Part shown: positions 4,948-63,772 of the stretch, one piece after another
Layout of the letters: each line of letters opens with the position of its first letter
Position numbering within the stretch: the first letter of the stretch is position 1
DNA from: a virus
Length of the DNA stretch: 64,000 nucleotides
Virus record (IMG/VR): IMGVR_UViG_3300032020_001000
Span: 19,862 to 83,861 of that record
Reading direction: 5' to 3' (one strand)
Translations under genes and position numbers: made by a program
The notes under the pieces: model-generated
Databases searched by the model: none
Seen by the model: only the letters and a program-made list of their open reading frames with translations
What the model was told of the DNA's origin: nothing

Positions 4948-5171
4948 GGACGATCATTGGCATCGGCGGATGGTGGTTGGCGGGGTGGTGGGTGCTGGAC
5001 GGCCCACTGATGTGGCGGGTCGTGTGGATGGCGGTGGGATTCGCCATCATCCTGTGCATCGGCGGCTGGGAGGAGAATGCGAGCGTGCGCAGACGAGCCG
5101 CGCGATCCCTGCGCCGGAATGCGCACAAGGTCCTGGGCCAGGACATCAGCGTCAAGTTGGGCGGCGGGTAG
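4944..5171 (+). CDS. small membrane protein
   Basis: GTG coupled to the sbcC stop; two hydrophobic Trp-rich segments. Confidence 0.5.
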   Translation: MRTIIGIGGWWLAGWWVLDGPLMWRVVWMAVGFAIILCIGGWEENASVRRRAARSLRRNAHKVLGQDISVKLGGG

Positions 5172-5257
5172 TGTATGCGTTAGCGATTGGCGCATGCCTC
5201 CATCGGCGCCGGAAGACGCCGCCGGGCGAATACGGTGCCGATTGCTGCCCGCCGCCC
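5156..5257 (+). ncRNA. structured intergenic element, copy 1
   Basis: 97/102 identical to 13105-13206; 13-bp closing stem plus two inner hairpins. Confidence 0.55.
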
Positions 5258-10217: not shown

Positions 10218-10466
10218 ATGACGACAAAGCAGCGGCTTGAGGAAGTCCTGCGGGCAGCCGGCCTGCATGAGATGGCCGCGAATGCGCTGCTCGGTGGCTA
10301 CGATGATTTCGAGACCACGAGTCCGACACCAATCCATGACCTGGTGCGGGATCTCAATGCTGCGGGCCGGCCCGATCTGGCGCAGCGGGCTATCAATGGG
10401 GAATGGGATGCAAGCCCCGATGAGGCGCGCGAATGGTTTAAACGCGAAGGCAGATATCTCCGATGA
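10218..10466 (+). CDS. hypothetical protein
   Basis: Globular-looking 82-aa ORF (GYDDFE...INGEWDA). Confidence 0.65.
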   Translation: MTTKQRLEEVLRAAGLHEMAANALLGGYDDFETTSPTPIHDLVRDLNAAGRPDLAQRAINGEWDASPDEAREWFKREGRYLR

Positions 10467-11049: not shown

Positions 11050-12405
11050 ATGGCATTCCGGCGGGGAAAAGCGAAGGCCGAAGGACGGATAATTGGGATT
11101 CGCTTCAAGGTGAGCGACCCGAAGCCGGCCGACCTGGCGATGCTGAAGACGCTGGCAGCGCGCTGCCGCGAGTTGCGTTATCACCTCTTTGATTGGGCAG
11201 TCGCAAACGATGGTTCCGGGCCAGAGCACCTGCGCGCCATGTATTACGAGGCCGCCCGCTTGGCGCCCGATCTGTCGGCAGACATGAGAGGCACGATTGC
11301 CGGGGAAATACGCACGGCGATCAAGCAGTATCGCAAAGTGCAGCGCCAGGACCCGCTGGCGCGCCCCTTCGAGTTCAAGCGCGTCATCATTCCGGTCAAG
11401 GTCTCAAGCATCTATGAGTTGGCGCCAGAAGGGGCGAATGGTTATTGGCGGCTGCGTGTCGGACTATGGGCGAGGGGCGGCACTGAAGAAACCACGGCCA
11501 GTCTCCGTCTAGCCGCGGACACTAATCGCAACGGGGATGGCTATCAATTGGCGCACTACAATGCTGCGGTGGCCTGGGGACTGGAGGCAGGCTCCTCGCC
11601 GATAGGGGACGGTAAGATTGTGCTCCAACGCGGGAAGTGGCTCTACATTCAGGCCTTATCCTTGGCTCCGGTTATGGCGGTCGAGGGCCTGCGGGTTGCG
11701 GGGGTTGATGTGGGGCGCCATCATCTGGCAGTGGTGGCGATGCCCGAGAACGGAAAGACGGAGTTCGTGGGGCGTTACAATTGGGTGCGCGACTTGATCG
11801 CCGACCGCTGGCGGAAGACTCGTCTCTATCGTGCGGGCCTGCGGAAGCGCGCCAATGCCGAAAGCGATAGGGCGGCTGACAAGACAAAGACAATCTGTCA
11901 GCAGGTGGCGGCTCGCGTCGCGGATGTGCTCGTGCAGTGGGAGGCCACGCACGTGGCGATGGAAGACCTGACCGGCATGAGGGAGAGACTCGCGGAAAAG
12001 TTCGGCGAGGGCACCGAGGGAGCCGTCGTCAATGCGCGCTTCCCCTACTATAGATTGCAGGCGGCGATTGAGTATGCTTGCGGGAAGGTTGGGATTGCCA
12101 CCGTCAAGGTGGAGGCCAAATACAGTTCGCAGACGTGTTGGCGCTGCGGAGAAAGGGGCAAGCGGGATGGGCTAGAGTTTAGATGCGACGAGTGCGGCAA
12201 GGAGCATGCTGATGCAAATGCGGCCCGCGTGATAGCTCAGCGAGGTCGCGAAGAGGTGATGGCACAGATGGATCAAGCAAGGCCAGCGGTTCCGGCTGCT
12301 GGACCCCGGGCGCCTGTACGCCCGCACGCCGACGAAGCACAGGAGAGGCGGGAATCCTGTGCCGGTCTCGGCAATTGGCCGGAGAAAAATGAGGCTACGG
12401 TCTAG
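11050..12405 (+). CDS. TnpB/Cas12f-like RNA-guided nuclease (451 aa), CRISPR-adjacent
   Basis: RuvC-I GVDVG, RuvC-II AMEDL, Zn ribbon SQTCWRCG...FRCDECG, RuvC-III HADANAA; all three acidic catalytic residues present. Confidence 0.9.
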   Translation: MAFRRGKAKAEGRIIGIRFKVSDPKPADLAMLKTLAARCRELRYHLFDWAVANDGSGPEHLRAMYYEAARLAPDLSADMRGTIAGEIRTAIKQYRKVQRQDPLARPFEFKRVIIPVKVSSIYELAPEGANGYWRLRVGLWARGGTEETTASLRLAADTNRNGDGYQLAHYNAAVAWGLEAGSSPIGDGKIVLQRGKWLYIQALSLAPVMAVEGLRVAGVDVGRHHLAVVAMPENGKTEFVGRYNWVRDLIADRWRKTRLYRAGLRKRANAESDRAADKTKTICQQVAARVADVLVQWEATHVAMEDLTGMRERLAEKFGEGTEGAVVNARFPYYRLQAAIEYACGKVGIATVKVEAKYSSQTCWRCGERGKRDGLEFRCDECGKEHADANAARVIAQRGREEVMAQMDQARPAVPAAGPRAPVRPHADEAQERRESCAGLGNWPEKNEATV

Positions 12406-12566
12406 TGGGGCGCGCATTCACGGCCAACTACAGGCAGGCGGCCCCTGTGCGCTCGTGCCCCTGGGGTGTAGTGGGGCGCGCATTCACGGCCAACTACAGG
12501 CGCTCGCTCGCATAGGACGCGTTCTCAACCGCTGTAGTGGGGCGCGCATTCACGGCCAACTACAGG
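12399..12566 (+). CRISPR. CRISPR mini-array: three 36-bp repeats, two 30-bp spacers
   Basis: Repeat GSTSTAGTGGGGCGCGCATTCACGGCCAACTACAGG at 12399, 12465 and 12531; unique spacers 12435-12464 and 12501-12530; orientation inferred. Confidence 0.9.
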
Positions 12567-12600
12567 ACAGGGGAATAGGCAGACAGGAGAGGAGGATACG

Positions 12601-12885
12601 GTGATGCGAGTTAACGTTGGCAGGCTTAACCCGGACGAGTTGGCGGCACTGGTGACGGCGGGCGAGCAGCGCCTCGAGGACATGCGGAGGGCGGCGTCGC
12701 GTCTGCCGGAAGCGCAGCGGAACCTCGAGGAGGCCCTCGGGGAGCGCGATCGTATCAGCGCGGAGATCCGCGCACTGCGCGCAGAGATCGAGGGGCTGCA
12801 GAATACGATCAAGCCGAAGCGGCGGCGCAAGGCGACGCCCGAGGCCGCCGCAGAGGCCCCGGATGATGCCATTGCCGCCGAATGA
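12601..12885 (+). CDS. small coiled-coil protein (paralog of 5286-5624)
   Basis: MRVNVGRLNPDEL...PKRRRKA; GAGGAGG RBS. Confidence 0.75.
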   Translation: MMRVNVGRLNPDELAALVTAGEQRLEDMRRAASRLPEAQRNLEEALGERDRISAEIRALRAEIEGLQNTIKPKRRRKATPEAAAEAPDDAIAAE

Positions 12886-12907
12886 GCCCGTTCGGGGAGG
12901 GCAGAGC

Positions 12908-13104: not shown

Positions 13105-13206
13105 GTTGGGCGGCGGGTAGTGTATGCGTTGGCGATTGGCGCATGCCTCCATCGGCGCCGGAAGAAGCCGCCGGGCGAGTACGGTGCCGCTTCCTGCCCG
13201 CCGCCC
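13105..13206 (+). ncRNA. structured intergenic element, copy 2
   Basis: Near-identical to 5156-5257. Confidence 0.55.
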
Positions 13207-13430: not shown

Positions 13431-14425
13431 CCCGTCGCATCGGGCGCTTTCAGTCCAAGCCGGGCATAGTCTGCGCTGGGTTCTGGCGCTTGCCCTACAT
13501 TGCTGCATGCCCGCATCAGTGCGCCTACTGCTACCTCGCGGGGACATACTGGCGCGGCCTCCCGCGGGATTTGACCGAGGCCGATCTGCCGGAGATGCAG
13601 CATGAAGTAGAGCGCTGGATGGAACGCACACGCTGCGAGGTCTGCGATGGCAGCGGCGAGTGGTGTCGGGCCTGTGATGCGCCCAGTCATGGCCCGGTGC
13701 AGGATGATGCAACGGGGGGACCCTGTCCAGTCTGCAAGGGCACCGGCGGAGCGATCCTCAACGCCGGCGAGCTGTCTGATTCCTTCGCCCCGGCGATCTC
13801 GGCGGAGCTGAGCCTGCGTCTCATCGAGATGTTCCGGGCTCAGGATAGGCACACGCTGCTGCTGCTCACCAAGGCCCTGCCGCATAGAGTGCTTCGCAAG
13901 ACCGAGCCGACGCCGCAGGTAATCCTGAGCTTCTCGCTGGGCCAGCAGCGGTTCTGCGGCCAACCGCTTGCGGGGCGCGGCCCCACCGGCGAGGCTCTGA
14001 TTGCGGCGGCGGGGGAGCTGCGCGCGATGGGATGGCGGGTTCGGCTGCGGATCGATCCCATCATCGACCGCCAAGGCCCGGAGCAGATCGAGCGGCTGCT
14101 GGAGAAGACACCTGGGCCGTGGGAGCGGATCACGCTCGGCTCGTTGAGATTCACCGAGGCGACCCACCGCCTGATGGTTCTCGGCACGCCCCTGCAGCAT
14201 GCCTTGGCCGGGCACCTAGTAGCCCGGATGGAGCCGGACTTTGGCCACCATCCGTGGCGGCTGGGCACGCATGAGCGGGTGCGGCTCTACCGCGACATCC
14301 GGGAGCGCCTGGCCGGCTGCACGGATTCCTGGGCGCTGTGCAAGGAGACGCCTGACATCTGGCGCCTGACCTTTGGCGCGGACTGGCCCGGGCATGAGTC
14401 GGTGCGGTGTAACTGTACGCCGTAG
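13427..14425 (+). CDS. radical SAM protein, spore-photoproduct-lyase-like
   Basis: CPHQCAYCYL (CxxxCxxC), GELSDS, LLTK, RIDPII, LCKE. Confidence 0.8.
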   Translation: MTRRIGRFQSKPGIVCAGFWRLPYIAACPHQCAYCYLAGTYWRGLPRDLTEADLPEMQHEVERWMERTRCEVCDGSGEWCRACDAPSHGPVQDDATGGPCPVCKGTGGAILNAGELSDSFAPAISAELSLRLIEMFRAQDRHTLLLLTKALPHRVLRKTEPTPQVILSFSLGQQRFCGQPLAGRGPTGEALIAAAGELRAMGWRVRLRIDPIIDRQGPEQIERLLEKTPGPWERITLGSLRFTEATHRLMVLGTPLQHALAGHLVARMEPDFGHHPWRLGTHERVRLYRDIRERLAGCTDSWALCKETPDIWRLTFGADWPGHESVRCNCTP

Positions 14426-14474
14426 GAAGCGGCCGACATCACCGCCATCCATGACAACACGAGGAGGCGACCGA

Positions 14475-16115
14475 GTGACCGACCAGACGGCTATTACCTA
14501 CGTCGAGGCGCGGAGCCTGCATGAGTCCGCGACCAACCCGCGCCGGCACTTCGACGAGCGCGGGCTCGAGGAGCTCGCGGCCAGCATCCGCGAGCAGGGC
14601 ATCATCAACGCGCTGCTGGTGCGCCCCATTCGTGACGACCGCGGCGAGCAGGTGATGGAGCGCGGGCCCAAGGATGATCGCAAGCCTCGGCCATCATACG
14701 AGGTGATCTGCGGCGCCCGCCGGCTGCGGGCCGCCCGGGCGGCGGGGCTGGAGTCCATCCCGATCGTGATCCGCGACCTCAACGACGCCCAGGCGCTGGA
14801 AACACAGGTCGTGGAGAACCTGCAGCGCGAGGACGTGCATCCCCTGGACGAGGCCCATGGTTTCCGCGCGCTCATGGAGAGCTGCCGCTACGACGTCACG
14901 GCGGTGGCAGCCAAGGTTGGGCGCTCGCAGTCCTACATCTACCAGCGCCTCAAACTGTGCGAACTCATCGAGCCGGTGCAGACCGCGCTGTGGGAGGAAA
15001 AGATCACCGCCGCCCATGCCATCCTGATCGCCCGCCTCCAGCCCCACGATCAGGCCGAGGCGCTGAAGCAGGCCACGCCCCGTTATCTCCAGGGCGACCA
15101 TGTCAGCGCCGCTCATCTCGACGACTGGATTAGAAGCAACATCCTGCTCGACCTGCACGCCGCGCCATTCGCCAAGGCGGATGCGCCGGACCTGGTGCCA
15201 TCCGCGAGCGTTTGCAAAGATTGCAAAAAGCGGACGGGGTACACGCCGGCGCTGTGGAGTGACCTGGCGAAGCGGGACCTGTGCGCCGACCGTGCCTGCT
15301 ACCACGCGAAGACCACCGCCCACGTCGAGCGCGCACTCGCGGCGGCGAAGACGAAGGGCGAGCGGCTGCTGCGGCTCAGCAGGCATTATGGGGCGACGGA
15401 TAAGGGCATCCTCTCGCGCAATGACTACTCCCAGCTAAAATCCGGCCTCAAGCATTGTGAAGCGGCGGGCAAGGGCATCATCGTCGGCGGCGAGGACGAC
15501 CTGGGGCAGATCATCACCGTGTGCCCGCGCTCCTCGAAGTGCAAAGAGCACTGGGGATCGAGTTCGTCGGCGCGCGCGCCGTCTGAGATCGCGGCGGAGA
15601 AGAAGCGCAAGGAGGCGAAGCGCGCCGCCCAGCGCGCGGGCCAACTGGTGCTCGAGCGGATCATGGAACGCGCGCGGGCGGAACCATTCGGCGCGCCGGC
15701 GATGCGGCTGCTTTATGCCGCCCAGACGCGGCACCTGGATCATAACGCGGCGAAACGCATGAGCGAGCAGCTCGGGCTGGAGCCGTCGAAGAACAACTGG
15801 GGCGGTACCGATTATCGAGGGGCAATCGTCAGCGTTTTCGATAATGAAGGGTCGCCCGAAAAGATCGCAACCGCGACCATCGAGTTGGCGCTGCAGGCGG
15901 AACTGGCAAGCGATCTCAACAACCACCAATTCGACGGCAAGTACGAGCACCTGCGGCAGCGCGGAAAAGACTGGGGCGTCAATGTCGCCGGCGCCGAGCG
16001 CCAGGTGGCGGCCGAGGAAAAGCAGCGCGCGGACGCGGCGGCCGCCCGGGCCAAGAAGCCGGCGCCCACCGGGAAGAAGCAAGCCAAGGCTAAGGGCAAG
16101 GCCGAGGGCAAATGA
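14475..16115 (+). CDS. ParB/RepB/Spo0J-family protein
   Basis: NPRRHF, LAASIREQG, GARRLRAA, ENLQRED, HTH; GTG start after GAGGAGG. Confidence 0.88.
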   Translation: MTDQTAITYVEARSLHESATNPRRHFDERGLEELAASIREQGIINALLVRPIRDDRGEQVMERGPKDDRKPRPSYEVICGARRLRAARAAGLESIPIVIRDLNDAQALETQVVENLQREDVHPLDEAHGFRALMESCRYDVTAVAAKVGRSQSYIYQRLKLCELIEPVQTALWEEKITAAHAILIARLQPHDQAEALKQATPRYLQGDHVSAAHLDDWIRSNILLDLHAAPFAKADAPDLVPSASVCKDCKKRTGYTPALWSDLAKRDLCADRACYHAKTTAHVERALAAAKTKGERLLRLSRHYGATDKGILSRNDYSQLKSGLKHCEAAGKGIIVGGEDDLGQIITVCPRSSKCKEHWGSSSSARAPSEIAAEKKRKEAKRAAQRAGQLVLERIMERARAEPFGAPAMRLLYAAQTRHLDHNAAKRMSEQLGLEPSKNNWGGTDYRGAIVSVFDNEGSPEKIATATIELALQAELASDLNNHQFDGKYEHLRQRGKDWGVNVAGAERQVAAEEKQRADAAAARAKKPAPTGKKQAKAKGKAEGK

Positions 16116-17911
16116 GAAGCAGCCCGCGAATCGAGTTGGGCCGCACAGTCGAGGATGCCCGGCCATTCTATCTCGACATGGAGACCCTCCTTCCGACGCG
16201 CCTGCTGCTGCAGGCGACGAGCGGCGGGGGCAAGTCATGGGCACTCCGCCGCATCCTGGAACAATCCCACGGGAGCATTCAGCAGATCGTGATTGACCCC
16301 GAGGGCGAGTTCCCCAGCCTGCGCGAGAAGTATGACTATGTCCTGGTGGGCAAGGGCGGCGACATTGCGGCCGAGCCGCGGTTGGCAGAGATGCTGGCGC
16401 ATCGGCTGCTCGAGTTGGGCGTCAGCGCCGTCTGCGATCTCTACGAGATGCGCGCCCGCGAGCGGCCGCACTTTGTGAAGGTTTTCCTCGAGGGCTTGAT
16501 CAACGCACCGCGCAAACTTTGGCATCCGGTTCTGATCGTTGTCGATGAGGCACATGCGTACTGCCCTGAAAAGGCCGACTCCGAATCAACCGATGCAGTA
16601 TGCGACCTCTGCACGCGCGGACGCAAGCGCGGCTTCTGCGCGATCCTGGCAACGCAGCGACTGAGCAACCTGAACAAGCAGGCGGCCGCGCAATGCTTTA
16701 ACGTCATGGTCGGCCCGACCAGCCTGGACATTGATCGCAAGCGCGCGGTCGAGGCCCTGGGTCTGAGCGGCGCCGAGCAGAAGCGCGTCCAGAACCTGCT
16801 GATGACGCGCGAGCCGGGCGAGTTCTACTGCATCGGTCGGGCGATGTCCAAGTCGCTCGCGTTGGTGAAGGTCGGCGGCGTGCAGACACATCACCCGGAG
16901 ATCGCGCGGGGTGCTCGAGCGGTGCAAGGGCCTCCCCCACCCCCGGAACGGGTCAAGGCTATGCTGGCGAAGCTGGCCGACCTGCCGCGGGCCGCAGAAG
17001 AAGACATTCAAGAGCGCGCCGGTTTACAGCGCCGGGTGCGCGAGTTGACCGGCGAGTTGGCGGCGGCGAAGCGGGTGGCACCGGGGCGGATAGATGACAA
17101 GCAAGAATTGGAGCTGCGCGCCGAGGTGCGCGCGGCCAAGGGGGCGCTGGCCGGCGCGGAGGTTCTGCACCGGCAGCGGATTGCGGAGGCGCGCAAGGCC
17201 GGCGACGAACTCAAGGGCATACTGAGCCGCGTGGCAGATCTGGCGGCGAAAGCGGCTGCGATCACGTTGCCAGACCCCGCGGTGAGCCTGATCGAATGGG
17301 ACAAAGCCGCAGGCGGGGCAGGTGGGCCGCCGATCGTCGGGACGCAACCTCCAGAACCTAGCATGCGAAGGCTGGATGGACGCCGGCGAGTTCCCGGCCC
17401 CCCGCCCGCAGGCCTTGATACCGCAGAGCCGTTGCTGCGCGCCGGTGCGCTGCGGATGCTGCGCACCCTTGCGCAGCACCACCCGATGGTTATGACGCGC
17501 AGCCAGCTCGGCACGCTCAGCGGCTTCACCCCGAGCGGCGAGACATTCGGTACCTACCTCGGCGACCTGCGTCGTGGCGGGTACATCGCTCTGGAAGGCC
17601 GCGAAGTAGAGATTACCGAGGCCGGCCTTGAACGCGCGGGCCGCGTACCGCCCACGCCGACCACGCTCGATGAACGGCTCGATGTCTGGCGGGGGGCCCT
17701 CCGCGCCGGCGAGCGGAAGATGCTCGATATCCTGGTCGAAGTTTACCCCGATACCCTCAGTCGCCAGGACCTCGCGGAGCGCACGGGTTTCGAGGCCAGC
17801 GGCGGCACATTCGGCACCTACCTCGGCGTGCTGCGGCGCAACGGACTGATCGAGGTGCGCGGCCCGGAAGTGCGCGCATCAGACACGCTGTTCATGGGGG
17901 ACGGAGCATGA
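16112..17911 (+). CDS. HerA/FtsK-like (DUF87) ATPase with two C-terminal wHTH-like repeats
   Basis: ATSGGGKS, IDPEGE, VVDEAH, GRKRG, LATQR; duplicated SG.TFGTYLG.LRR.G motif. Confidence 0.82.
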   Translation: MRSSPRIELGRTVEDARPFYLDMETLLPTRLLLQATSGGGKSWALRRILEQSHGSIQQIVIDPEGEFPSLREKYDYVLVGKGGDIAAEPRLAEMLAHRLLELGVSAVCDLYEMRARERPHFVKVFLEGLINAPRKLWHPVLIVVDEAHAYCPEKADSESTDAVCDLCTRGRKRGFCAILATQRLSNLNKQAAAQCFNVMVGPTSLDIDRKRAVEALGLSGAEQKRVQNLLMTREPGEFYCIGRAMSKSLALVKVGGVQTHHPEIARGARAVQGPPPPPERVKAMLAKLADLPRAAEEDIQERAGLQRRVRELTGELAAAKRVAPGRIDDKQELELRAEVRAAKGALAGAEVLHRQRIAEARKAGDELKGILSRVADLAAKAAAITLPDPAVSLIEWDKAAGGAGGPPIVGTQPPEPSMRRLDGRRRVPGPPPAGLDTAEPLLRAGALRMLRTLAQHHPMVMTRSQLGTLSGFTPSGETFGTYLGDLRRGGYIALEGREVEITEAGLERAGRVPPTPTTLDERLDVWRGALRAGERKMLDILVEVYPDTLSRQDLAERTGFEASGGTFGTYLGVLRRNGLIEVRGPEVRASDTLFMGDGA

Positions 17912-18591
17912 GGTGCTGGCCGGAAAATGAAGAACAACTCGCCGCCCCTATCCTGCCGTGGCTGGAGCAGCAGCACTGGGACGTGTACCAGGAAGTTCAG
18001 ATCCTAGCCTACGAGAGTGTTGCCGACATCGTGGCAATCCAGGGGCCCCTCATCTGGGTCATCGAGGTAAAGCGCAGCCTCGGGTTCCGGGTATGCGAGC
18101 AGGCGATTCGATGGCAGCAGATAGCCCACCTCGTCTCGGTGGCGGTGCCGGCCACCGAGCGGGGCGGCCGCGGGCCATTCGTCACCCACATGCTCCATCA
18201 TATCGGCCTCGGAGTTATCACGGCGCGAGAGCATGGCAGTCCACACGAGTTGCTGTCGGCGCGTCTGTGTCGGCGCACCGTGCCGGTGCTGACCGCCCGC
18301 CTGCGCAAAGCCTGCACCGAGGAGCGCAAGCACTTCGCGCGGGCCGGCAATGCGGAAGGCTTGCGCTACACGCCTTTTAGCGCCACCTGTCGAGCCGTGC
18401 TGGACTATGCGACGAAGCATCCCGGTGCCACCCTCAAGGAGGTGGTGGAGGGGATTGACCATCACTACCGCAGCGACACGACGGCGCGATCCTGCCTGGC
18501 CCAGTGGATTCGGGCTGGCAAGGTGCGCGGAGTAGTGGCGCGGCACGAGGGCCGGCTAATGCGGGTCTATGTGGCCCAGGAGAACACGTGA
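17908..18591 (+). CDS. PD-(D/E)XK nuclease-like protein with C-terminal HTH
   Basis: YQEV...ADIVA...IEVK...EQA pattern. Confidence 0.65.
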   Translation: MRCWPENEEQLAAPILPWLEQQHWDVYQEVQILAYESVADIVAIQGPLIWVIEVKRSLGFRVCEQAIRWQQIAHLVSVAVPATERGGRGPFVTHMLHHIGLGVITAREHGSPHELLSARLCRRTVPVLTARLRKACTEERKHFARAGNAEGLRYTPFSATCRAVLDYATKHPGATLKEVVEGIDHHYRSDTTARSCLAQWIRAGKVRGVVARHEGRLMRVYVAQENT

Positions 18592-28211: not shown

Positions 28212-28514
28212 ATGACGGAGAAGACACGGATCGAGAAGCTGGAGAACCCGCAGGACCTGCTGACGCTGCTGAAGCTGCCGCGCACCTTCGAGTGGGACGG
28301 GAGCACCTGGGAGCATGGCAGCTCGAGCGCCGAGAGCATGGCGGCGATGCTCGGTCTGCACGGACCCGAGAGAGTATACGCGCCGACCATCGAGTGGATG
28401 GCGCACGACAAGGATGCGCACGGGAACTTCACTCGCCATCAGCGGATTCAGATGGTGTTCGAGGTTGACGGCACGACCATCAGCGCCGACCGCGTGGAGG
28501 TGATGAAGTACTGA
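28212..28514 (+). CDS. hypothetical early protein
   Basis: First ORF after the promoter. Confidence 0.65.
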   Translation: MTEKTRIEKLENPQDLLTLLKLPRTFEWDGSTWEHGSSSAESMAAMLGLHGPERVYAPTIEWMAHDKDAHGNFTRHQRIQMVFEVDGTTISADRVEVMKY

Positions 28515-28576
28515 GCGAAACGGGGCTGCGGCCCCGTCCGCCGGGGATGGCCGCCCGGCGCTGAAGAGCCAGGCCA
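28511..28576 (+). ncRNA. type II hammerhead ribozyme
   Basis: GAAA 28517, stem III, GTC 28536-28538, stem I, CTGAAGA 28561, pseudoknot TGGCC/GGCCA. Confidence 0.88.
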
Positions 28577-28583
28577 GAGAGGA

Positions 28584-31784: not shown

Positions 31785-32318
31785 ATGAGATGGGTAGTCG
31801 TTGTGGCGGTGCTGTTGCTGATAGCAGGAATTGGCTGGAGCGCAGGCGATGAAGCAGGACGCGACCTTTCGGTGGCAGTCCTTTACGGTCAGGGCTCCAG
31901 CGGCGGTGATGCAGCGTTTGGTATGGAACTGATCGGGGGTCGCGGCGCAGATTGGGATGGAGTGGCGCTGTGGCTTTCGGGCAAGCCCTTCCAGGGAGAG
32001 GATGTGATTGACACATCCATTCCGCATGGCGACTATCGCGTCCGCGAGGAGCACGGATCGATTGGGCTGCAGTACCTGCATGGATCGGGAACTCCGCGCG
32101 CGCTGGCCATCGTCGGTGTCGGCTTCATCATGGATGAGACCCGCTACATTCAAGTTTCCAACGTCACGGGCTGGGAGTGGGCCGGCGGATCTGATACGCA
32201 TTACGAGGTGACCGCACAGGTCGGCGGCCGCCTGCAGCTTGCGCCCGGGCTCAGCTTGCGCGCGGGCTATGATAGCCATTACCGCGCCTTTGGCGGCCTG
32301 GCCTTTCAATCGCGGTAG
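31785..32318 (+). CDS. outer-membrane beta-barrel-like protein
   Basis: Signal peptide; alternating Gly/aromatic strands; C-terminal GGLAFQSR. Confidence 0.6.
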   Translation: MRWVVVVAVLLLIAGIGWSAGDEAGRDLSVAVLYGQGSSGGDAAFGMELIGGRGADWDGVALWLSGKPFQGEDVIDTSIPHGDYRVREEHGSIGLQYLHGSGTPRALAIVGVGFIMDETRYIQVSNVTGWEWAGGSDTHYEVTAQVGGRLQLAPGLSLRAGYDSHYRAFGGLAFQSR

Positions 32319-32408
32319 GGGCTATAACGACACCAGGCAGGGGAGACCGGGGCACACGCGGGCAGCTGCGGGGCAACCGCAAGGGCTGTGTGTGGACCCG
32401 CCCTCGTG

Positions 32409-32417
32409 TGGTATAAT
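32409..32417 (+). promoter_or_regulatory. extended -10 promoter upstream of the methylase/terminase operon
   Basis: TGGTATAAT followed by a GC hairpin; no consensus -35. Confidence 0.5.
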
Positions 32418-32481
32418 CGAGACGGGCCGCCTGCGGGAAAACTGTGGGCGGCCCGGCTTGTGGCCCTGCCTGGAGAGTGCA

Positions 32482-33948
32482 TTGACTGAACCGACCGACT
32501 GGTTGCGCCTGCCGCTCGAGCGGCTGCTGGCGAATCCGCGCAACTACCGCAGGCATCCCGAGGCGCAGATCGCGGCGCTCCGCGCCAACCTCAGTCGTCA
32601 TGGGCAGCAGAAGCCCGTGGTGATCCGCTCGGACGACACGATCCTGGCCGGCCACGCGCTGGTGGAGGCGGCGCGGCAGTCGGGCTGGAGCGAGATCGGC
32701 ATACGCGTCTACGACGGCACCGCCCCCGACGCATTCCTGGTCGACGATAACGAGTCGGTGCGCCTGGCAGAGGATGATGACCAGGCACTCGCCGGGCTGC
32801 TGCGAGAGCGCATGGAGGCGGGGACGCTGGACTCCACGGGCTGGGGAGAGGATGAGGTGCGGGCGCTGCTCGAGCGCATCGAGGCGGAGCAGCACCAGGT
32901 GCAGGGCGAAGATCCGGGGCCGGGGGAGGCGCCGGCGGAGCCGGTAACGCGCCCGGGCGACTTATGGCTGCTGGGCGAGCACCGGCTGCTGTGCGGTGAC
33001 TGCATGGTCGAGGGCGACATCGACCGCCTCATGGCCGGCGAGAAGGCCGGGTGCTGCGTGACGTCGCCGCCCTACGCCATGCAGCGAGAATCGACGTACG
33101 GCGGCACCCCCGCCTCCGATTATCCCGCCTGGTTCCGGCGCGTGGCAGCCCAGGTGTGGAGCGCGCTCGATGAGGCCGGCAGTTTCTTTCTGAACCTCAA
33201 AGAACACGTCGAGGATGGCCAGCGCAGCCTCTACGTCATGCGTACGGTGATCGCTCTCGTCGAGGCGGGTTGGCGCTACGTGGATCAGCTGATCTGGGTG
33301 AAGCCCGGGCTGCCGGGCGAGCACTACCCGCGCTTGAAGAATGACTTCGAGCCGATTCATTTCTTCGCGCGGCAGGACGCCGTCAACTGGCAAGTGCGGG
33401 TTGTGGACATGAACCGCGACTGGCTGGCGGAGACCGACTTCAACCTGGCGGAGATGTATGAGGACATCTTCCAGTTCTCCAAGCAGTTCCGGATCAGGTT
33501 CCGACCGCGCGCAGTGGGGCACCGAAGCACGGGCGTTCCTGAGTATCAAGGGCCCGGCGGCTCCTACGGCCCCAGCGGGAACATCAGCCTGAACGATGAT
33601 GTGCGAGTCTCAGGCATCGCGCGCCCGGGCAACGTGCAGCATTTTGGACTAAATCGTGAATCCTTCGATCATCCGGCGGTGTTCCCGGTGGCGCTGCCGG
33701 CCTTCTTCATGCGCTTGACCACCGAGGAAGGCGGGCTGACCTTCGAACCCTTCTCCGGCGCGGGCACGACCATCATCGCCGCGGAGCAGAACCAGCGCCG
33801 ATGCGTCGCCGTGGAACTGGTGCCGGCCTACTGCGACGTCGCTATCGAGCGCTGGCAGCGCATGACCGGACGCCCAGTGTCCCATGCGGAGACAGGCAGA
33901 ACCTTCGCCGAGTACACTCAGGAGCGTGCTCAGGGCGGCGCAGAGTGA
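32482..33948 (+). CDS. ParB-domain fused N4/N6 DNA methyltransferase
   Basis: NPRNYRRH, AGH, HRLLCGD, TSPPY, HPAVFP, EPFSGAGTT; TTG start after GGAGA. Confidence 0.88.
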   Translation: MTEPTDWLRLPLERLLANPRNYRRHPEAQIAALRANLSRHGQQKPVVIRSDDTILAGHALVEAARQSGWSEIGIRVYDGTAPDAFLVDDNESVRLAEDDDQALAGLLRERMEAGTLDSTGWGEDEVRALLERIEAEQHQVQGEDPGPGEAPAEPVTRPGDLWLLGEHRLLCGDCMVEGDIDRLMAGEKAGCCVTSPPYAMQRESTYGGTPASDYPAWFRRVAAQVWSALDEAGSFFLNLKEHVEDGQRSLYVMRTVIALVEAGWRYVDQLIWVKPGLPGEHYPRLKNDFEPIHFFARQDAVNWQVRVVDMNRDWLAETDFNLAEMYEDIFQFSKQFRIRFRPRAVGHRSTGVPEYQGPGGSYGPSGNISLNDDVRVSGIARPGNVQHFGLNRESFDHPAVFPVALPAFFMRLTTEEGGLTFEPFSGAGTTIIAAEQNQRRCVAVELVPAYCDVAIERWQRMTGRPVSHAETGRTFAEYTQERAQGGAE

Positions 33949-33994: not shown

Positions 33995-34768
33995 ATGAGC
34001 GCCGATCGGCAACCGCTGCAGCCGGCCGGGAATGGGGCAGACGGGAGCCCCGGCGGGGAGCAACGTGGAGGGACGGGACCAGATCACCAGCCGCCGGGCA
34101 ATGTAGGCACACAGGGGCACACAGGGGCAACTCCGGGGCAACCTGGGCGGCGACGGCGCGGCGGTGGGGCCCGGGCGGAGCGGATCGCTATCCTCGAGGA
34201 GCGGCGTACGCGGGTGTGGATGCTGGCACTCGTCCGCAAGCTCAGCGTCCGCGAGATCGCCCAGGTCGTGGGCGTTGGGAAGAGCACGGTCGACCGGGAT
34301 CTGCTGACGGTCCGCAGGCGCACACATGCAGTGATACGCGCGACCGGCCGCATGGAGCAAGCCGTCCTGCAGATGGCGGCGCAGATTATCGAGACCTGCG
34401 ACGCGGTGGCGCGGCAGGCCTGGGCCGACCTGATGGAGGCGCCAAAGGGCTCGTCGACGCGGGCGCGGTTCCTGCGGATCATCCTGGGAGCCGTCGCAGA
34501 GCAGGTCAAGTTGCTGCAATCCCTCGGGGTAATGAAGCGGGTACCGGAGGAGGTGGTGATCGGTGGATTCGAGCTTGAGCAGCGTCTCCAGCGACTCAGC
34601 GACGAGGATGCGGCCGCAGCTATCGCGCTCCTCGATCAAATCTGTCCCCCTATTGAGGGAGCCACTGGCGGCAATGGTGGCCGCGCGCAGCGACCCGCGA
34701 GCGTGGATCGAGAGCCACCTTTGGATACGCGACAAGCGCCGCCGCCTGATACCACTGCACCTGAATGA
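33995..34768 (+). CDS. terminase small subunit-like HTH protein
   Basis: LSVREIAQVVGVGKSTVDRDL; immediately before the large terminase. Confidence 0.7.
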   Translation: MSADRQPLQPAGNGADGSPGGEQRGGTGPDHQPPGNVGTQGHTGATPGQPGRRRRGGGARAERIAILEERRTRVWMLALVRKLSVREIAQVVGVGKSTVDRDLLTVRRRTHAVIRATGRMEQAVLQMAAQIIETCDAVARQAWADLMEAPKGSSTRARFLRIILGAVAEQVKLLQSLGVMKRVPEEVVIGGFELEQRLQRLSDEDAAAAIALLDQICPPIEGATGGNGGRAQRPASVDREPPLDTRQAPPPDTTAPE

Positions 34769-36263
34769 GTGCCAGGCCGATTACCATGCCCACGCGACGC
34801 AGTGGGACGTGATCCTCAAGGCGCGGCAGATCGGGTTCACCACGCTCATCTGCGCCCGCTACTTCGCTGACTGCCTGCTGCGGCGCAATACCGTGTCGGT
34901 CATCGTGGCGCATGATGCCGACTCGGCGGAGAAGATCTTCCGCATCGTGCAGCTCTACTGGGAGCGGCTACCGGCGTGGCTGCACGTGATGGCGGGCAAG
35001 CCGCGCTTCTCCAACCGCCGCGAGTTCTTCTGGCCGCAGATCAACAGCCAGTTCTATGTCGGCACCGCCGGCGCCCTGACCTTTGGACGCGGCCAGACCA
35101 TCAACAACCTGCACTGCAGCGAGTTCGCGTTCTGGCCCAAGCCCGAGGAGGCGCTGGTTGCCCTCAGCGAGGCAGTGCCTGCGGATGGGCGGATGGTGAT
35201 CGAGAGCACGGCCAACGGCATGGGCAATTACTTCCACCGCCTGTGGCGGGCGGCGATGGATCAGGAGAACCGCTTTACGCCGCACTGGTATCGGTGGTTT
35301 GACTCCAGCGAGTATGCAGCGGCGCCGACCGCCGCCGAGGAAGCGGCATGGGCCGCACAACTGGTTTCGGCGGACGCTGGCCAGCTCGGGGCGAGGGATG
35401 GGGTAGCTGGCCTCAGCCAGGATGAACTGCGCCTCATTCGCGGCCACGGGCTGTCCTTTGCACAGATCAAGTGGCGGCGGGAGAAGGTGCGCGACCTCGG
35501 CCAGCGCTTCAGGCAGGAATACCCCGAGAATGACCTGGACTGCTTCCTGGCGAGCACGCGCGGGGTGTTCGAGCCGGATGCGCTGGAGCGAGCGGTGGCG
35601 CGGATCGCCGCCGAGCCGCGGGCGCAGCGCCTTGATATCCTGCGCGGCAAGGACAGCCAGATCGCGGTCGCGCCGGCAACGCTGCTGGTATGGGAGGAGC
35701 CGGTCGCGGAGCGCATCTACGTGATCGGCGCCGACGTTGGCGAGGGGCTTGCTGGCGGCGATGCATCCGCGGCCTGCGTGCTGGACCGCAACAGCGGGGC
35801 GCAGGCGGCAGAGCTGCACGGACGGGTGGCGCCCGACCGCTTCGCGCAGCAACTGAACCTCCTGGGCCGCTGGTATAACCGGGCGCTGCTGGCGGTGGAG
35901 CGCAACAACCACGGGCACTCGACGCTCAACACGCTACGCAATGTCCTGCGCTACCCGCGCCTCTACTACCACGTGCGCTACGATGCGATGAGGCAGGCTA
36001 CTCCTATGCTGGGCTGGCCGACCGACCAGGCGACGAAGCCGATCCTGGTGGACGATATGGCGGCAGCGATATCGCAGGATGCGTTAATCATGCGCTCATC
36101 CGGGCTGGCGGACGAATGCCGGACGTTCGTGGTTCACAATGATGGATCGCAGGGGGCGGAGGTCGGCCAGTTTGATGATCGGGTGATTGCTGCGGGTATT
36201 GCATGGCAGGCGCGCAAGCGGATGGTGCCGCGGCCCATTGCCAAGCGGCCAGAGGGATGGTGA
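34674..36263 (+). CDS. terL: terminase large subunit
   Basis: LKARQIGFTT, LHCSE, ESTANG, GADVGEG, VERNNHG, DDRVIA; start uncertain. Confidence 0.92.
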   Translation: MVAARSDPRAWIESHLWIRDKRRRLIPLHLNECQADYHAHATQWDVILKARQIGFTTLICARYFADCLLRRNTVSVIVAHDADSAEKIFRIVQLYWERLPAWLHVMAGKPRFSNRREFFWPQINSQFYVGTAGALTFGRGQTINNLHCSEFAFWPKPEEALVALSEAVPADGRMVIESTANGMGNYFHRLWRAAMDQENRFTPHWYRWFDSSEYAAAPTAAEEAAWAAQLVSADAGQLGARDGVAGLSQDELRLIRGHGLSFAQIKWRREKVRDLGQRFRQEYPENDLDCFLASTRGVFEPDALERAVARIAAEPRAQRLDILRGKDSQIAVAPATLLVWEEPVAERIYVIGADVGEGLAGGDASAACVLDRNSGAQAAELHGRVAPDRFAQQLNLLGRWYNRALLAVERNNHGHSTLNTLRNVLRYPRLYYHVRYDAMRQATPMLGWPTDQATKPILVDDMAAAISQDALIMRSSGLADECRTFVVHNDGSQGAEVGQFDDRVIAAGIAWQARKRMVPRPIAKRPEGW

Positions 36264-36567: not shown

Positions 36568-37932
36568 ATGGCCATTGATTTCCGCGTCTACCCGCCCGAG
36601 CGAGAGAAAACGCGCATCGAAGGGTACGTCCGCTACGAGAAGCTGTTTCTGGGGCAGCACCGGGAATTGTATGCGGCGCGGCCGGGCCGATACCAGCTAG
36701 CTCGCTACATCGCGGTCAACATGCCGGGCATGATCTCGCGGCTATGTGCCGACCTGCTGTTTGGCGAGCAGCCCGACTTCACAGCCACTGAGGATGCGAC
36801 GCAGGAGGCGCTGGATGATCTGGTACAGCGCAACAACCTGCACACCCTCAACTATGAGTCCGCCTTGGCGAACTCCTTCCGCGGCGACGCGGTGTACAAG
36901 GTGCGCTGGGGCAAGCGCACCCCGCAGGCGGAGCTACCGGAGGCCATCATCGAGGAGGTGCCGCCCGCCATCTACTTCCCTGAGATCGATGAGGACGATG
37001 TGAGGAGAGTGAGGAGGGTGACCCTGGCTTGGCTCAAGATCGATCCGGCCAACCCTCAGTTGCGCTACCTGCGGATGGAGGAGCATGAACCCGGCGTGGT
37101 CCGGAATCGGCTGCTGCGCTTCGCCGACAGAGGGGCGACGCAGGAGGAGATGCCGCTCACGATCTTCTCGGCCTATGAGGGACTCGAGCCTGAGGTGGCA
37201 ACGGGGCTGAGTGTGATCCCAATCTTCCACATCCCGAACTTCGTGTATGGGAGCCGCTTCTGGGGGATCAGCGACTACGAGGGGTTGGAGACCCTGTTCG
37301 AGGCGCTCAATGACCGGGTGACGCAGTGCGACGATGTGCTCAGCAAGCACGTGGCGCCGAAGCTGGTGGTGCCGCCGCGCTTCGTCGACGAGGAGGGGAA
37401 GGTCAAACTGGGCGAGCTGGAGGTCGTGCAGCTCGACCCCGGAGAGCCGGCGCCGACCTACGTCACGTGGGATGCGCACCTGACCGCAGCGATGGCACAC
37501 TTGGACCGCTTGATGGACTTCATCTTCATCATCTCCGAGACAGCGCCTGCCGCGTTCGGGCTGGACAAATATGGCGTGGCCGAGTCGGGCAGGGCATTGC
37601 GGCTGCGCCTGCTGCGTACGCTCGCCAAGGTCAATCGCAAGCGGTTGTACTATGATCGCGCCCTGAAAGCGGCCCTGCTATGCGCGCAGCAGCTCGAGGT
37701 GGTGCACGGCGGCGCGTCCTATGAACCCCAGGAGCCCGTCATTGGCTGGGCGGACGGCCTGCCGGAGGACATGTTCGAGCTGGTGCAGATGGAGGCCCAG
37801 CGGCTGACGGCCGGCAACACGAGCCTCGAGTCCAGCATCCGCCGCCTGGATGGCCCCGATGCGGTCGAGGCTGAGATGGAGAGGATCGCCGAGGACCTGG
37901 GGCAGGCGACGACGCTGACGGGGCAGGGATAA
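36568..37932 (+). CDS. portal protein (SPP1-like)
   Basis: ADLLFGE, WGISDY, YVTWD, SGRALR, W.DGLP.D; position after terL. Confidence 0.9.
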   Translation: MAIDFRVYPPEREKTRIEGYVRYEKLFLGQHRELYAARPGRYQLARYIAVNMPGMISRLCADLLFGEQPDFTATEDATQEALDDLVQRNNLHTLNYESALANSFRGDAVYKVRWGKRTPQAELPEAIIEEVPPAIYFPEIDEDDVRRVRRVTLAWLKIDPANPQLRYLRMEEHEPGVVRNRLLRFADRGATQEEMPLTIFSAYEGLEPEVATGLSVIPIFHIPNFVYGSRFWGISDYEGLETLFEALNDRVTQCDDVLSKHVAPKLVVPPRFVDEEGKVKLGELEVVQLDPGEPAPTYVTWDAHLTAAMAHLDRLMDFIFIISETAPAAFGLDKYGVAESGRALRLRLLRTLAKVNRKRLYYDRALKAALLCAQQLEVVHGGASYEPQEPVIGWADGLPEDMFELVQMEAQRLTAGNTSLESSIRRLDGPDAVEAEMERIAEDLGQATTLTGQG

Positions 37933-52791: not shown

Positions 52792-53018
52792 CGCCGATGC
52801 AGATCGAGTTGCTGGTGGGTGCAATCGGCCGGCGGAGGCGGCGCGAAACTCACGAGCAGGCGGTCCTTCTGCGGATGGCGCAGGTGGATGGCAGAGCATT
52901 CGCGCGATTCCTGCGGCAACTCGATCCCGATCATGCGCCTGGTCGGGTGCGGGACATGACCGCAGAGCAGTGGCAAGCCATGGGAGTGAAGATTCGGAGA
53001 GCACCGAGCGATGACTGA
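52677..53018 (+). CDS. -1 frameshift extension of the tail chaperone (gpGT-like)
   Basis: T TTT TTC at 52677-52683; -1 frame open as RARKG...YTHESVIWRMTPMQIELL to 53018. Confidence 0.75.
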   Translation, partial: FFRARKGPARDGGRWADLCDAILSEYGGYTHESVIWRMTPMQIELLVGAIGRRRRRETHEQAVLLRMAQVDGRAFARFLRQLDPDHAPGRVRDMTAEQWQAMGVKIRRAPSDD

Positions 53019-63726: not shown

Positions 63727-63764
63727 GATAGGGAGTAGGAAGTAGGGAGCAGGGAGTAGGGAGG
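63727..63764 (+). repeat. heptamer tandem repeat (AGTAGGG-like, about 5 copies)
   Basis: GATAGGG AGTAGGA AGTAGGG AGCAGGG AGTAGGG AGG, running into the next RBS. Confidence 0.7.
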
Positions 63765-63772
63765 AATCATAC

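What the first reader, a model, noticed from the sequence alone, without database searches (positions are those of the whole stretch)
11050..12566. Phage-encoded miniature type V-like system: 451-aa TnpB/Cas12f-like nuclease running into a CRISPR mini-array
Seen: the RuvC D/E/D motifs and Zn ribbon are intact. The TAG stop (12403-12405) lies inside repeat 1. There are three 36-bp repeats and two 30-bp spacers (CAGGCGGCCCCTGTGCGCTCGTGCCCCTGG; CGCTCGCTCGCATAGGACGCGTTCTCAACC). No tnpA, cas1 or cas2 was seen, and the array sits within an operon 34 bp before the next gene. The repeat ends are self-complementary (CTGTAGT...ACTACAG). Established: 36/30 geometry with GYTGTAG-like ends is typical of type II and VI-B arrays, and TnpB has associated with CRISPR arrays several times. 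Inference: this may be an independent TnpB-to-Cas12 transition that borrows host adaptation machinery and acts against competing elements.
Basis: partly seen in the sequence, partly recalled or inferred. Interest (0 to 1): 0.85.

Follow-up and report, generated by a model that had tools for sequence, protein, structure and literature searches.

The report
Phage TnpB-like nuclease with mini-array
A temperate phage carries a transposon-sized RNA-guided DNA cutter whose gene tail appears to encode a guide-RNA scaffold that runs straight into a three-repeat CRISPR-like array; this is a rare new lineage of a kind of system that has already been described, and its targets are unknown.

Summary
ORF 11050-12405 encodes a 451-aa TnpB/Cas12f-like protein with an intact RuvC triad and zinc ribbon. 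Its TAG stop lies inside the first of three 36-nt repeats (period 66, two 30-nt spacers).

New here:
- The last ~170 nt of the gene behave like an RNA scaffold. They are hyper-conserved, lack the coding GC3 signal, have stems kept by compensatory changes, and carry a two-part anti-repeat to the repeat's 3' end.
- A gene-less copy of scaffold plus array, with identical spacers, lies 15 kb upstream, outside the window, 422 nt after the integrase gene.
- The 83.9-kb provirus record has no TnpA, Cas1 or Cas2.

No target was found for either spacer. No other array with this repeat was found, and no RNA data exist. The claims of borrowed host adaptation and action against competitors therefore remain unsupported.

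The protein is isolated: one 76% fragment, all else 38% identity or less. Its nearest solved relatives are miniature Cas12f.

The architecture matches the described TnpB-to-CRISPR intermediates (TranC, Cas12n, phage Cas12r). This scan has noted similar phage loci on other DNA.

Verdict: real, and a new variant of a known kind. Interest is moderate and function is unproven.

The parts
11050..12405 (+). TnpB/Cas12f-like nuclease gene, 451 aa (P0001). Codons: RuvC-I D220 at 11707-11709, RuvC-II E305 at 11962-11964, RuvC-III D388 at 12211-12213. Zn ribbon C363/C366/C379/C382 at 12136-12195.
   Evidence: ORF and translation. Pfam PF07282 59.6 bits. NCBIfam guided_TnpB 85.3 bits, below the 100-bit cut-off. 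PADLOC Cas12u3 70 bits and Cas12f 66 bits. Conserved columns. Atlas structure neighbours are TnpB-like clusters, TM 0.67-0.71 over residues 13-404.
12230..12398 (+). Putative guide-RNA scaffold (omegaRNA/tracrRNA-like) lying under the C-terminal tail codons (residues ~394-450).
   Evidence: 97.6% identical in the gene-less copy, whose homology starts exactly at 12230. Tail is 49/52 identical to P0002 against 141/195 for the body, Fisher p 3.9e-4. GC by codon position is 0.79/0.55/0.57 against 0.64/0.48/0.72 in the body. The Atlas fold alignment ends at about residue 404.
12281..12305 (+). Scaffold hairpin A.
   Evidence: Predicted. Four of the eight differences between the two copies lie in it and all keep pairing: A:U to G:C on both sides, G:U to A:U, U:G to U:A.
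12307..12324 (+). Scaffold hairpin B (CGGGCG/CGCCCG). Its loop CCTGTA (12313-12318) is the first half of the anti-repeat, complementary to the repeat's last 6 nt.
12328..12372 (+). Scaffold hairpin C.
   Evidence: Two differences between the copies (12335, 12339) change A:U to G:U and keep the pairs.
12375..12381 (+). Second half of the anti-repeat, TTGGCCG, complementary to CGGCCAA in each repeat.
   Evidence: Collinear 6+7 nt match to 13 of the last 14 nt of the repeat. 4 of 2000 shuffled tails score as high. 9 of 992 record windows score as high, including the arrays' and tails' own windows. The minimum-energy and centroid folds pair it with repeat 1.
12399..12434 (+). Repeat 1. It contains the TAG stop at 12403-12405, and its 5' end is degenerate (GGTCTAG).
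12435..12464 (+). Spacer 1 (30 nt).
   Evidence: No target found.
12465..12500 (+). Repeat 2.
12501..12530 (+). Spacer 2 (30 nt).
   Evidence: No target found.
12531..12566 (+). Repeat 3, with the best self-complementary ends. The 34 nt that follow could give a run-off guide.
   Evidence: The run-off guide is an analogy with Cas12r (paper read), an inference.

Best explanation
This is a domesticated, non-mobile TnpB-derived RNA-guided nuclease of a temperate phage, with its own guide-RNA module.

Proposed mechanism:
- The last ~170 nt of the gene, under a disordered protein tail, are transcribed with the operon and fold into three hairpins.
- A two-part anti-repeat (CCUGUA and UUGGCCG) pairs with the last 14 nt of each 36-nt repeat.
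- For repeat 1 this pairing is in cis, so scaffold, repeat 1 and spacer 1 form a natural single guide like a transposon omegaRNA.
- Repeats 2 and 3 would pair with a scaffold in trans, like crRNA with tracrRNA.
- The nuclease loaded with these guides would cut DNA that matches the 30-nt spacers next to an unknown PAM/TAM. The likely targets are rival mobile elements, as shown for phage Cas12r.
- A second scaffold-plus-array cassette without the gene, beside the integrase gene, supplies the same two guides.

Shown here: the protein family, the intact catalytic motifs, the array, the duplicate cassette, the unusual conservation and composition of the tail, the pair-preserving changes and the anti-repeat.

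Inferred: transcription, processing, guide loading, cleavage, the targets and the biological role.
For: - Protein: TNB domain, conserved D/E/D and CxxC...CxxC, TnpB-like predicted fold over residues 13-404. Best solved relatives by sequence are miniature Cas12f: OsCas12f 9nzq at E 9.5e-11 (identified in PMC13186708).
- Array: three repeats directly at the stop codon. This is the position where omegaRNA and nearly all Cas12 arrays lie (PMC10691335 passages).
- Scaffold conservation: the gene-less copy starts just after RuvC-III. All 8 of its differences fall in the first 110 nt and none in the next 227 nt (p 1.1e-4).
- Scaffold structure: 6 of the 8 differences lie in predicted stems and none breaks a pair.
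- Scaffold against relative: the tail is 94% identical to P0002 and the body 72%. GC3 drops to 0.57 in the tail.
- Anti-repeat: significant against shuffles, 4 of 2000, and recovered by the MFE and centroid fold.
- Not mobile: no TnpA or serine recombinase. Only one TnpB-like frame in the record. Tight operon packing, with no promoter-like or terminator-like site in 11800-12900.
- Both contexts of the cassette occur in contigs of a public run.
- Relatives: 24 of 80 IMG/VR loci encoding TnpB relatives have CRISPR-like repeats beside the gene. The two nearest in the tree, L008 and L010, both do.
Against: - There is no expression or processing data. The only run that holds the stretch is DNA.
- No target was found for either spacer.
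- The spacers are identical in the two copies, so nothing shows that they turn over like CRISPR spacers.
- The fold of the scaffold is no more stable than shuffles (z -0.86, 43 of 200; z +0.34 for 371 nt).
- An energy-based duplex scan of +-2 kb found no anti-repeat better than shuffled repeats. The anti-repeat rests on a 6+7 nt match.
- The covariation comes from only two sequences. All changes are transitions, which keep pairs about half the time by chance.
- The identity of the 3' 227 nt could come from gene conversion rather than selection.
- The same anti-repeat test on 15 relatives with downstream arrays was clear in only 2: 0 and 7 of 500 shuffles. It gave 17-46 of 500 in 9 and more than 100 of 500 in 4.
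- The placement beside L008/L010 has SH-aLRT 91 on a 2.05 branch, which is unsafe.
Confidence: 0.6

Rival explanations
1. It is a relic. A once-active TnpB/omegaRNA or mini-CRISPR locus is decaying in the phage, and the gene-less copy is the stump of a second gene lost by deletion. The repeats and 'spacers' no longer guide anything.
For: Only three repeats and two spacers, identical in both copies. No targets found. The gene-less copy is truncated exactly inside a former gene, and 6 of its 8 differences are at third codon positions, as if they arose while it was still coding. It shares two residues with P0002.
Against: The nuclease gene is intact, with all catalytic and zinc ligands. The 227 nt that hold anti-repeat half 2, the three repeats and the spacers show no change at all, while the adjacent 110 nt differ at 7%. 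The stem changes keep pairing.
Confidence: 0.17
2. It is a still-mobile IS200/IS605- or IS607-type element. The repeats are part of its right end, and the second copy is a remnant of transposition (a PATE-like solo end).
For: There is a second partial copy of the 3' end in the same genome. A 12-nt duplication of the repeat end follows repeat 3 of that copy. OmegaRNAs overlap the tnpB 3' end (PMC10691335 passages).
Against: No Y1 or serine TnpA in the record. Only one TnpB-like frame. There is no room for a left end, with 18 nt to the previous ORF. No similarity between the two copies outside the 337 nt. No copies in other collections.
Confidence: 0.08
3. The array is a host-type viral mini-array that is read by a host Cas system and merely lies beside the TnpB-like gene.
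For: A 36-nt repeat with 30-nt spacers is a common host geometry (recalled, not tested). The nearest viral relatives, L008 and L010, carry 29-30-nt repeats with period 60-61, a geometry I recall as typical of type I-E.
Against: The stop codon lies in repeat 1 and the anti-repeat lies in the gene tail. Scaffold and array are duplicated together as one unit. The repeat was not found in 185,579 species genomes, JGI metagenomes or IMG/VR, by exact 21- or 32-mers only.
Confidence: 0.07
4. The repeats act as DNA, not RNA, for example as binding sites for the integrase, a ParB-like protein or the terminase. Alternatively they encode a repeat peptide in the +1 frame (ORF 12359-12604).
For: One copy lies 422 nt after the integrase gene and the other 1.8 kb before a ParB-like gene. 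The 66-nt period is a multiple of 3, and an 81-codon frame is open through the array in both copies.
Against: The duplicated unit includes 170 nt of the nuclease gene, with pair-preserving changes. The spacers are unrelated to each other. GC3 of the +1 frame over the array is 0.62, with no coding signal, and a frame open for about 114 codons is expected at roughly 5-10% in 65% GC DNA (my estimate).
Confidence: 0.05

Closest known systems
TranC (transposon-CRISPR intermediates; Jin et al., Cell 2025). I did not read that paper. I know it only through PMC13565253 (passages) and bioRxiv 10.64898/2026.03.27.714800 (passages), which also describes the 414-aa phage CauTranC9.
   Same: TnpB-sized nuclease, no other cas genes, and a short downstream array (published clades: 32-38-nt repeats, 3-20 repeats). 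The guide is derived from the transposon right-end RNA, split into a scaffold and a crRNA. Examples occur in phages.
   Different: P0001 alone does not hit the LaTranC chains at E<=1. Only the family profile does, at 6e-22. Clade membership cannot be tested because the sequences are in supplements, which are closed. In this locus repeat 1 is still fused to the scaffold and holds the stop codon, and a gene-less scaffold-array cassette exists.
Cas12n (type V-N, formerly V-U4), as described in bioRxiv 10.64898/2026.03.27.714800 (passages).
   Same: An unstructured C-terminal tail after the last RuvC residue whose DNA encodes the tracrRNA, with an anti-repeat 100-200 nt after the catalytic residue and the array downstream.
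   Different: No sequence hit of P0001 to the Cas12n chain 9j09 at E<=1. Smaller protein: 451 aa, against an average of 544 aa reported there. The anti-repeat is two-part and short.
Miniature Cas12f (type V-F): OsCas12f 9nzq, AsCas12f 7wju/8dzj and the 432-aa chains 8j1j/8j12/8j3r.
   Same: These are the best solved relatives by sequence. Similar size (415-433 aa). Downstream array plus a long scaffold RNA (129-156-nt guides, PMC13186708 passages).
   Different: Only the RuvC/TNB half aligns (residues 177-406). NCBIfam Cas12f2 scores 63.8 bits against a cut-off of 450. The N-terminal 190 aa have almost no sequence relatives. The scaffold lies inside the gene rather than between gene and array.
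Cas12r-CRISPR of Thermus Lalka phages (bioRxiv 10.64898/2026.04.20.719267; abstract, sections 23 and 25, and passages read).
   Same: A temperate phage with an integrase, a TnpB-derived effector followed by a short array, and no cas1/cas2. Shown there to interfere with phages and plasmids and to target rival integrative elements. A guide is also made from the sequence after the last repeat.
   Different: Cas12r is 564 aa with 29-bp repeats and 31-33-nt spacers, and it works with crRNA only. Its spacers vary between phages and 18 of 25 have matches. Here the spacers are fixed in both copies and unmatched. Sequence relationship was not tested, because I had no Cas12r sequence.
IS200/IS605 TnpB with omegaRNA (for example ISDra2, 8h1j/8bf8).
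   Same: Protein size and fold. The guide scaffold overlaps the 3' end of the gene and the guide follows it directly.
   Different: No TnpA, no IS ends and a single gene copy. The terminal 36 nt of the scaffold are triplicated with 30-nt spacers. NCBIfam IS200_TnpB scores 24.7 bits against a cut-off of 425.

Membership tests
TnpB/Cas12 superfamily | TNB (zinc-ribbon) domain above Pfam's gathering score | tested here: met
   PF07282 scores 59.6 bits against 26.3, residues 333-395.
TnpB/Cas12 superfamily | RuvC D-E-D triad present | tested here: met
   D220 is invariant. E305 and D388 are >=90% conserved columns in 90 sequences.
TnpB/Cas12 superfamily | NCBIfam guided_TnpB above its curated cut-off | tested here: not met
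   85.3 bits against 100. Only profile positions 171-389 match.
Mobile IS200/IS605 or IS607 TnpB (OMEGA) | Partner transposase TnpA (Y1 or serine) nearby | tested here: not met
   PF01797 and PF00239 give 0 matches in the 83.9-kb record, and the controls ring.
Mobile IS200/IS605 or IS607 TnpB (OMEGA) | Several full copies, or defined left and right ends | tested here: not met
   One TnpB-like frame only. 18 nt to the upstream ORF. The second copy lacks the gene and any shared left flank.
Mobile IS200/IS605 or IS607 TnpB (OMEGA) | Guide scaffold overlaps the 3' end of the gene | tested here: inconclusive
   Conservation, composition, pair-preserving changes and an anti-repeat support it. There are no RNA data.
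Type V CRISPR-Cas (any subtype) | CRISPR array next to the effector gene | tested here: met
   Three 36-nt repeats and two 30-nt spacers, starting at the stop codon.
Type V CRISPR-Cas (any subtype) | Spacers vary between relatives and/or match mobile elements | tested here: not met
   Spacers are identical in the two copies. No matches in the record, in phages, IMG/VR or plasmids. No other locus of this lineage could be fetched.
Cas12f (V-F) | Curated family model above its cut-off | tested here: not met
   NCBIfam Cas12f2 scores 63.8 bits against 450. PADLOC Cas12f and Cas12u3 models score 66-70 bits on the C-terminal half only.
Cas12f (V-F) | tracrRNA with an anti-repeat to the repeat's 3' part | tested here: inconclusive
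   A 6+7 nt collinear anti-repeat in the tail, matched by 4 of 2000 shuffles. It meets the '6 of 10 bases within the final 16' rule quoted. An energy scan was negative.
Cas12n (V-N) | Sequence kinship to Cas12n | tested here: not met
   9j09 is not among P0001's PDB hits at E<=1.
Cas12n (V-N) | Disordered tail after RuvC-III that holds the tracrRNA | tested here: met
   Fold alignments stop at about residue 404. This is a likeness of architecture, not kinship.
TranC | Membership in a published TranC clade | not testable with these tools
   Clade sequences are in supplements, which are closed. LaTranC chains (9jfq, 9jfo) are not hit by P0001 at E<=1, only by the family profile.
Cas12r | Sequence kinship to LalCas12r; 29-bp repeats; crRNA-only | not tested
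   No Cas12r sequence was available. The repeat length differs (36 against 29). tblastn against 50,697 phage records gave only TnpB 'transposase' hits at 35% identity or less.

The most novel reading that the evidence does not exclude
This may be a very young, independent omegaRNA-to-CRISPR transition caught midway. Repeat 1 would still be the fused 3' end of a transposon-type single guide. Repeats 2 and 3 would be serial duplications of that 36-nt end working in trans. The phage would keep a second, gene-less scaffold-array cassette beside its integrase, so that two fixed guides are made in another expression context (for example lysogeny). Those guides would police a rival integrative element or an attachment site rather than give adaptive immunity.
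Probability: 0.15. Interest if true: 0.7.

Novelty: new variant of a known kind. Interest (0 to 1): 0.45.

Why it matters
How CRISPR arrays arose from transposon guide RNAs is usually inferred from trees. Altae-Tran et al. 2023 proposed 'serial duplication of omegaRNA segments' (PMC10691335 passages), and the TranC work proposed splitting of the right-end RNA (as cited).

This locus shows both states in one transcript. The scaffold is fused to the first repeat and two more repeats follow, next to a nuclease with a core of about 400 aa. A gene-less copy of the RNA module also exists.

If active, it would be among the smallest array-linked nucleases. It would also be a natural test case for whether one scaffold can serve guides both in cis and in trans.

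It adds one more temperate phage that carries such a weapon, in line with Cas12r. Without targets or RNA data it remains a well-described candidate, not a demonstrated system.

Tried and rejected
Relatives
- The protein and the P0001+P0002 alignment found no locus in IMG/VR, JGI metagenomes or species genomes.
- Exact scans gave 0 hits: the 32-nt repeat core in IMG/VR, a 21-nt repeat end in metagenomes and in genomes, and a degenerate pattern for the conserved tail peptide in IMG/VR.
- The ParB-like neighbour found no sibling phage. I could therefore not compare arrays or empty sites in relatives.

Spacer targets
- Self-BLAST found only chance matches (best 17/19, E 0.33).
- Cultured phages gave E>=2. 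IMG/VR 22-mers gave 0. Plasmids gave no match.

RNA evidence
- No RNA holder was listed.
- Contigs of the one DNA run only confirm both contexts of the cassette (52).
- Rfam gave nothing in 11900-12750 at E<=10.
- No sigma-70-like promoter or intrinsic terminator was found at either copy (58, 59).
- Folding energy is not better than shuffles.
- The energy-based anti-repeat scan was negative.
- No degenerate extra repeat was found up- or downstream.

Rejected ideas
- +1-frame repeat peptide: no coding composition (96-98).
- TnpB pseudogene upstream of the gene-less copy: none by tblastn or HMM.
- Cas-delta (PMC12721324, abstract only): an unrelated large effector.

Structure
I relied on the Atlas neighbours.
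Full report
WHAT IS THERE

The window is bases 19862-83861 of an 83,861-bp IMG/VR record classed as a provirus. It is a tailed temperate phage.
- Structural genes: portal (36568-37932), large terminase (34563-36263), tape measure (53011-56355), and head and tail proteins.
- Replication genes lie upstream: SbcC-like and DnaD-like.
- A tyrosine integrase lies at record 15187-16476.
- GC content is 65.5%.

ORF 11050-12405 (+) gives a 451-aa protein, P0001.
- It starts 18 nt after the previous ORF.
- The next ORF starts 34 nt after the array.
- No promoter-like or terminator-like site lies in between.

- Repeats start at 12399, 12465 and 12531, each 36-37 nt, with period 66 and two 30-nt spacers.
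- The TAG stop at 12403-12405 lies inside repeat 1.
- The core occurs 3 times against 0 expected by chance.
- Only repeat 3 has perfectly pairing ends.

THE PROTEIN

Family scans give these scores:
- Pfam TNB domain: 59.6 bits.
- NCBIfam guided_TnpB: 85.3 bits, under the 100-bit cut-off. Cas12f2: 63.8 bits against 450.
- PADLOC Cas12u3: 70 bits. Cas12f: 66 bits.
- All of these match only residues ~190-405.

D220, E305, D388 and the four cysteines sit on conserved columns of a 90-sequence alignment.

An exhaustive HMMER search of 1.84 billion representatives gave 1718 hits at E<=1e-3, but only one at E<=1e-30. That hit is P0002, a 256-aa fragment from a 1048-nt JGI contig, 76% identical. Everything else is 38% identical or less and aligns almost only to the C-terminal half.

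The Atlas's own model of this protein (pTM 0.61) aligns over residues 13-404 with TnpB-like clusters of 384-418 aa, several of them viral (TM 0.67-0.71). So it is a TnpB-sized core of about 400 aa plus a tail of about 50 aa.

Among solved structures P0001 best matches OsCas12f (9nzq, E 9.5e-11) and other miniature Cas12f. The profile of its neighbours scores:
- Cas12f: 1e-73 to 1e-44
- ISDra2 TnpB: 4e-28
- Cas12n: 3e-26
- LaTranC: 6e-22

THE TAIL LOOKS LIKE AN RNA SCAFFOLD

Five independent observations point the same way.

(i) Against P0002 the body is 141/195 identical and the tail 49/52 (Fisher p 3.9e-4).

(ii) GC by codon position is 0.64/0.48/0.72 in the body but 0.79/0.55/0.57 in the tail. 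The usual third-position signal of this genome is lost.

(iii) A second copy of exactly 12230-12566 lies at record 16899-17235, 97.6% identical over 337 nt.
- Its homology begins just after the RuvC-III motif.
- No TnpB body lies upstream, by tblastn or by a family HMM on all six frames.
- All 8 differences lie in the first 110 nt and none in the remaining 227 nt, which include both spacers (p 1.1e-4).

(iv) In the consensus fold of the two copies, 6 of the 8 differences lie in stems and none breaks a pair. One A:U becomes G:C by changes on both sides. The others are G:U/A:U-type changes.

(v) The tail holds CCTGTA (12313-12318, the loop of hairpin B) and TTGGCCG (12375-12381, just after hairpin C).
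- They are collinear and complementary to 13 of the last 14 nt of every repeat (CGGCCAA-C-TACAGG).
- 4 of 2000 shuffled tails score as high. 9 of 992 record windows do, a count that includes the arrays' and tails' own windows.
- The minimum-energy and centroid folds of 12275-12436 pair TTGGCCG with repeat 1.

Caveats:
- Folding energies are not better than shuffles.
- A duplex-energy scan found nothing.
- Two sequences give little covariation power.
- The same anti-repeat test was clear in only 2 of 15 relatives with downstream arrays.

WHAT IT IS NOT
- No Y1 or serine TnpA, and no Cas1 or Cas2, in the record.
- No other arrays in the record.
- No IS ends.
- The +1 frame that stays open through the array in both copies has no coding composition (GC3 0.62).
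- Both contexts of the cassette appear in independently built contigs of a sediment metagenome run at similar depth. That run is probably the source sample.

TARGETS AND RELATIVES

No protospacer was found for either spacer:
- in the record;
- in cultured phages;
- in IMG/VR by exact 22-mers;
- in plasmids.

The repeat was not found in IMG/VR, JGI metagenomes or 185,579 species genomes, by exact 32- or 21-mers. Nothing therefore supports a host array with this repeat, borrowed adaptation, or any particular target.

A looser alignment fetched 80 IMG/VR loci of TnpB relatives.
- By a crude exact-repeat finder, 24 of the 80 have CRISPR-like repeats next to the gene, 15 downstream and 9 upstream.
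- For the tree I used 67 loci plus P0001. 13 short or interrupted loci were left out.
- In that tree P0001 is a long branch (2.05) beside L008 and L010 (SH-aLRT 91, not safe).
- L008 and L010 both carry arrays, with 29-30-nt repeats and period 60-61.
- Array-bearing loci are concentrated in P0001's half of the tree.

COMPARISON WITH WHAT IS KNOWN
- Altae-Tran et al. 2023 (passages) showed that Cas12 arose from TnpB many times. They found that arrays lie downstream, like omegaRNA, and proposed that arrays arise by serial duplication of omegaRNA segments.
- TranC intermediates are described as TnpB-like proteins whose right-end RNA split into tracrRNA and crRNA (passages). The original Cell 2025 paper is not in the library and I did not read it.
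- The same preprint reports that Cas12n carries its tracrRNA under a disordered tail after the last RuvC residue. It also reports a 414-aa phage TranC9.
- Cas12r of Thermus Lalka phages is a temperate-phage TnpB-derived effector with a short array. It was shown to interfere, and it aims at rival integrative elements.

This locus fits that family of systems in architecture. It fails every curated subtype model tested and has almost no sequence kin.

Its particular features are:
- the array begins inside the gene, so repeat 1 is fused to the scaffold;
- a gene-less scaffold-array cassette sits beside the integrase;
- the spacers are fixed.

Earlier notes of this scan list several similar phage loci on other DNA. 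They are unchecked leads. They gave me the Cas12r and TranC references, which I then read.

VERDICT

The interpretation as a phage-borne TnpB-derived type V-like system is the best reading (about 0.6). The claims about host adaptation machinery and anti-competitor action are untested. It is a new variant of a known kind, of moderate interest.

Paper supplements were also closed.

Noticed in passing
record G000:C1:16899-17235 (outside the window, 2.6-3.0 kb before its first base); L007:16899-17235: A gene-less copy of the nuclease gene's last 170 nt plus the whole three-repeat array with the same spacers. It lies 422 nt after a tyrosine integrase gene (L007:15187-16476) and 28 nt before ORF 17264-18436. 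A 12-nt duplicate of the repeat end follows repeat 3.
   Followed up: yes
window 28513-28578 (+): Type II hammerhead ribozyme, Rfam RF02276, 53.3 bits against a gathering score of 37, E 3.7e-08.
   Followed up: no
window 5156-5257 and 13105-13206: A 102-nt element present twice at 95% identity with unrelated flanks. The second copy lies about 540 nt after the array.
   Followed up: partly
record 1-324 and 83513-83836 (window 63652-63975): The two ends of the provirus record share a 324-nt direct repeat at 90.5% identity. This could be att-flanking duplication or a repeated gene segment.
   Followed up: no
L008:3174-3385 and L010:868-1095: The two nearest viral relatives of the protein carry four-repeat arrays with 29-34-nt repeats and period 54-79, mostly 60-61. 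One array is 29 nt after the gene and the other just upstream in the opposite sense. I recall this geometry as typical of type I-E.
   Followed up: partly
loci L008-L087 (IMG/VR): 24 of 80 phage loci that encode TnpB relatives have CRISPR-like interspaced repeats beside the gene, 15 downstream and 9 upstream. They cluster in one half of the tree.
   Followed up: partly
window 10227-10408: The public run holds a second, lower-depth contig (8.4 against 43) with 27 differences in 182 nt, so a related phage strain is present in the same sample.
   Followed up: no
window 60090-60184 (-): ARAGORN calls a 95-nt tRNA-Gly (tcc), unusually long for a tRNA.
   Followed up: no
window 14373-16115 and 32239-33948: Two ParB-like genes. 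The second is fused to a DNA methyltransferase (PHROG 498, 8e-75). ORF 16112-17911 matches only part of a terminase model, while the full large terminase is at 34563-36263.
   Followed up: no
window 12359-12604 (+1 frame): An 81-codon frame stays open through the whole array in both copies and would give three SGARIHGQLQ units. Its composition argues against coding.
   Followed up: yes
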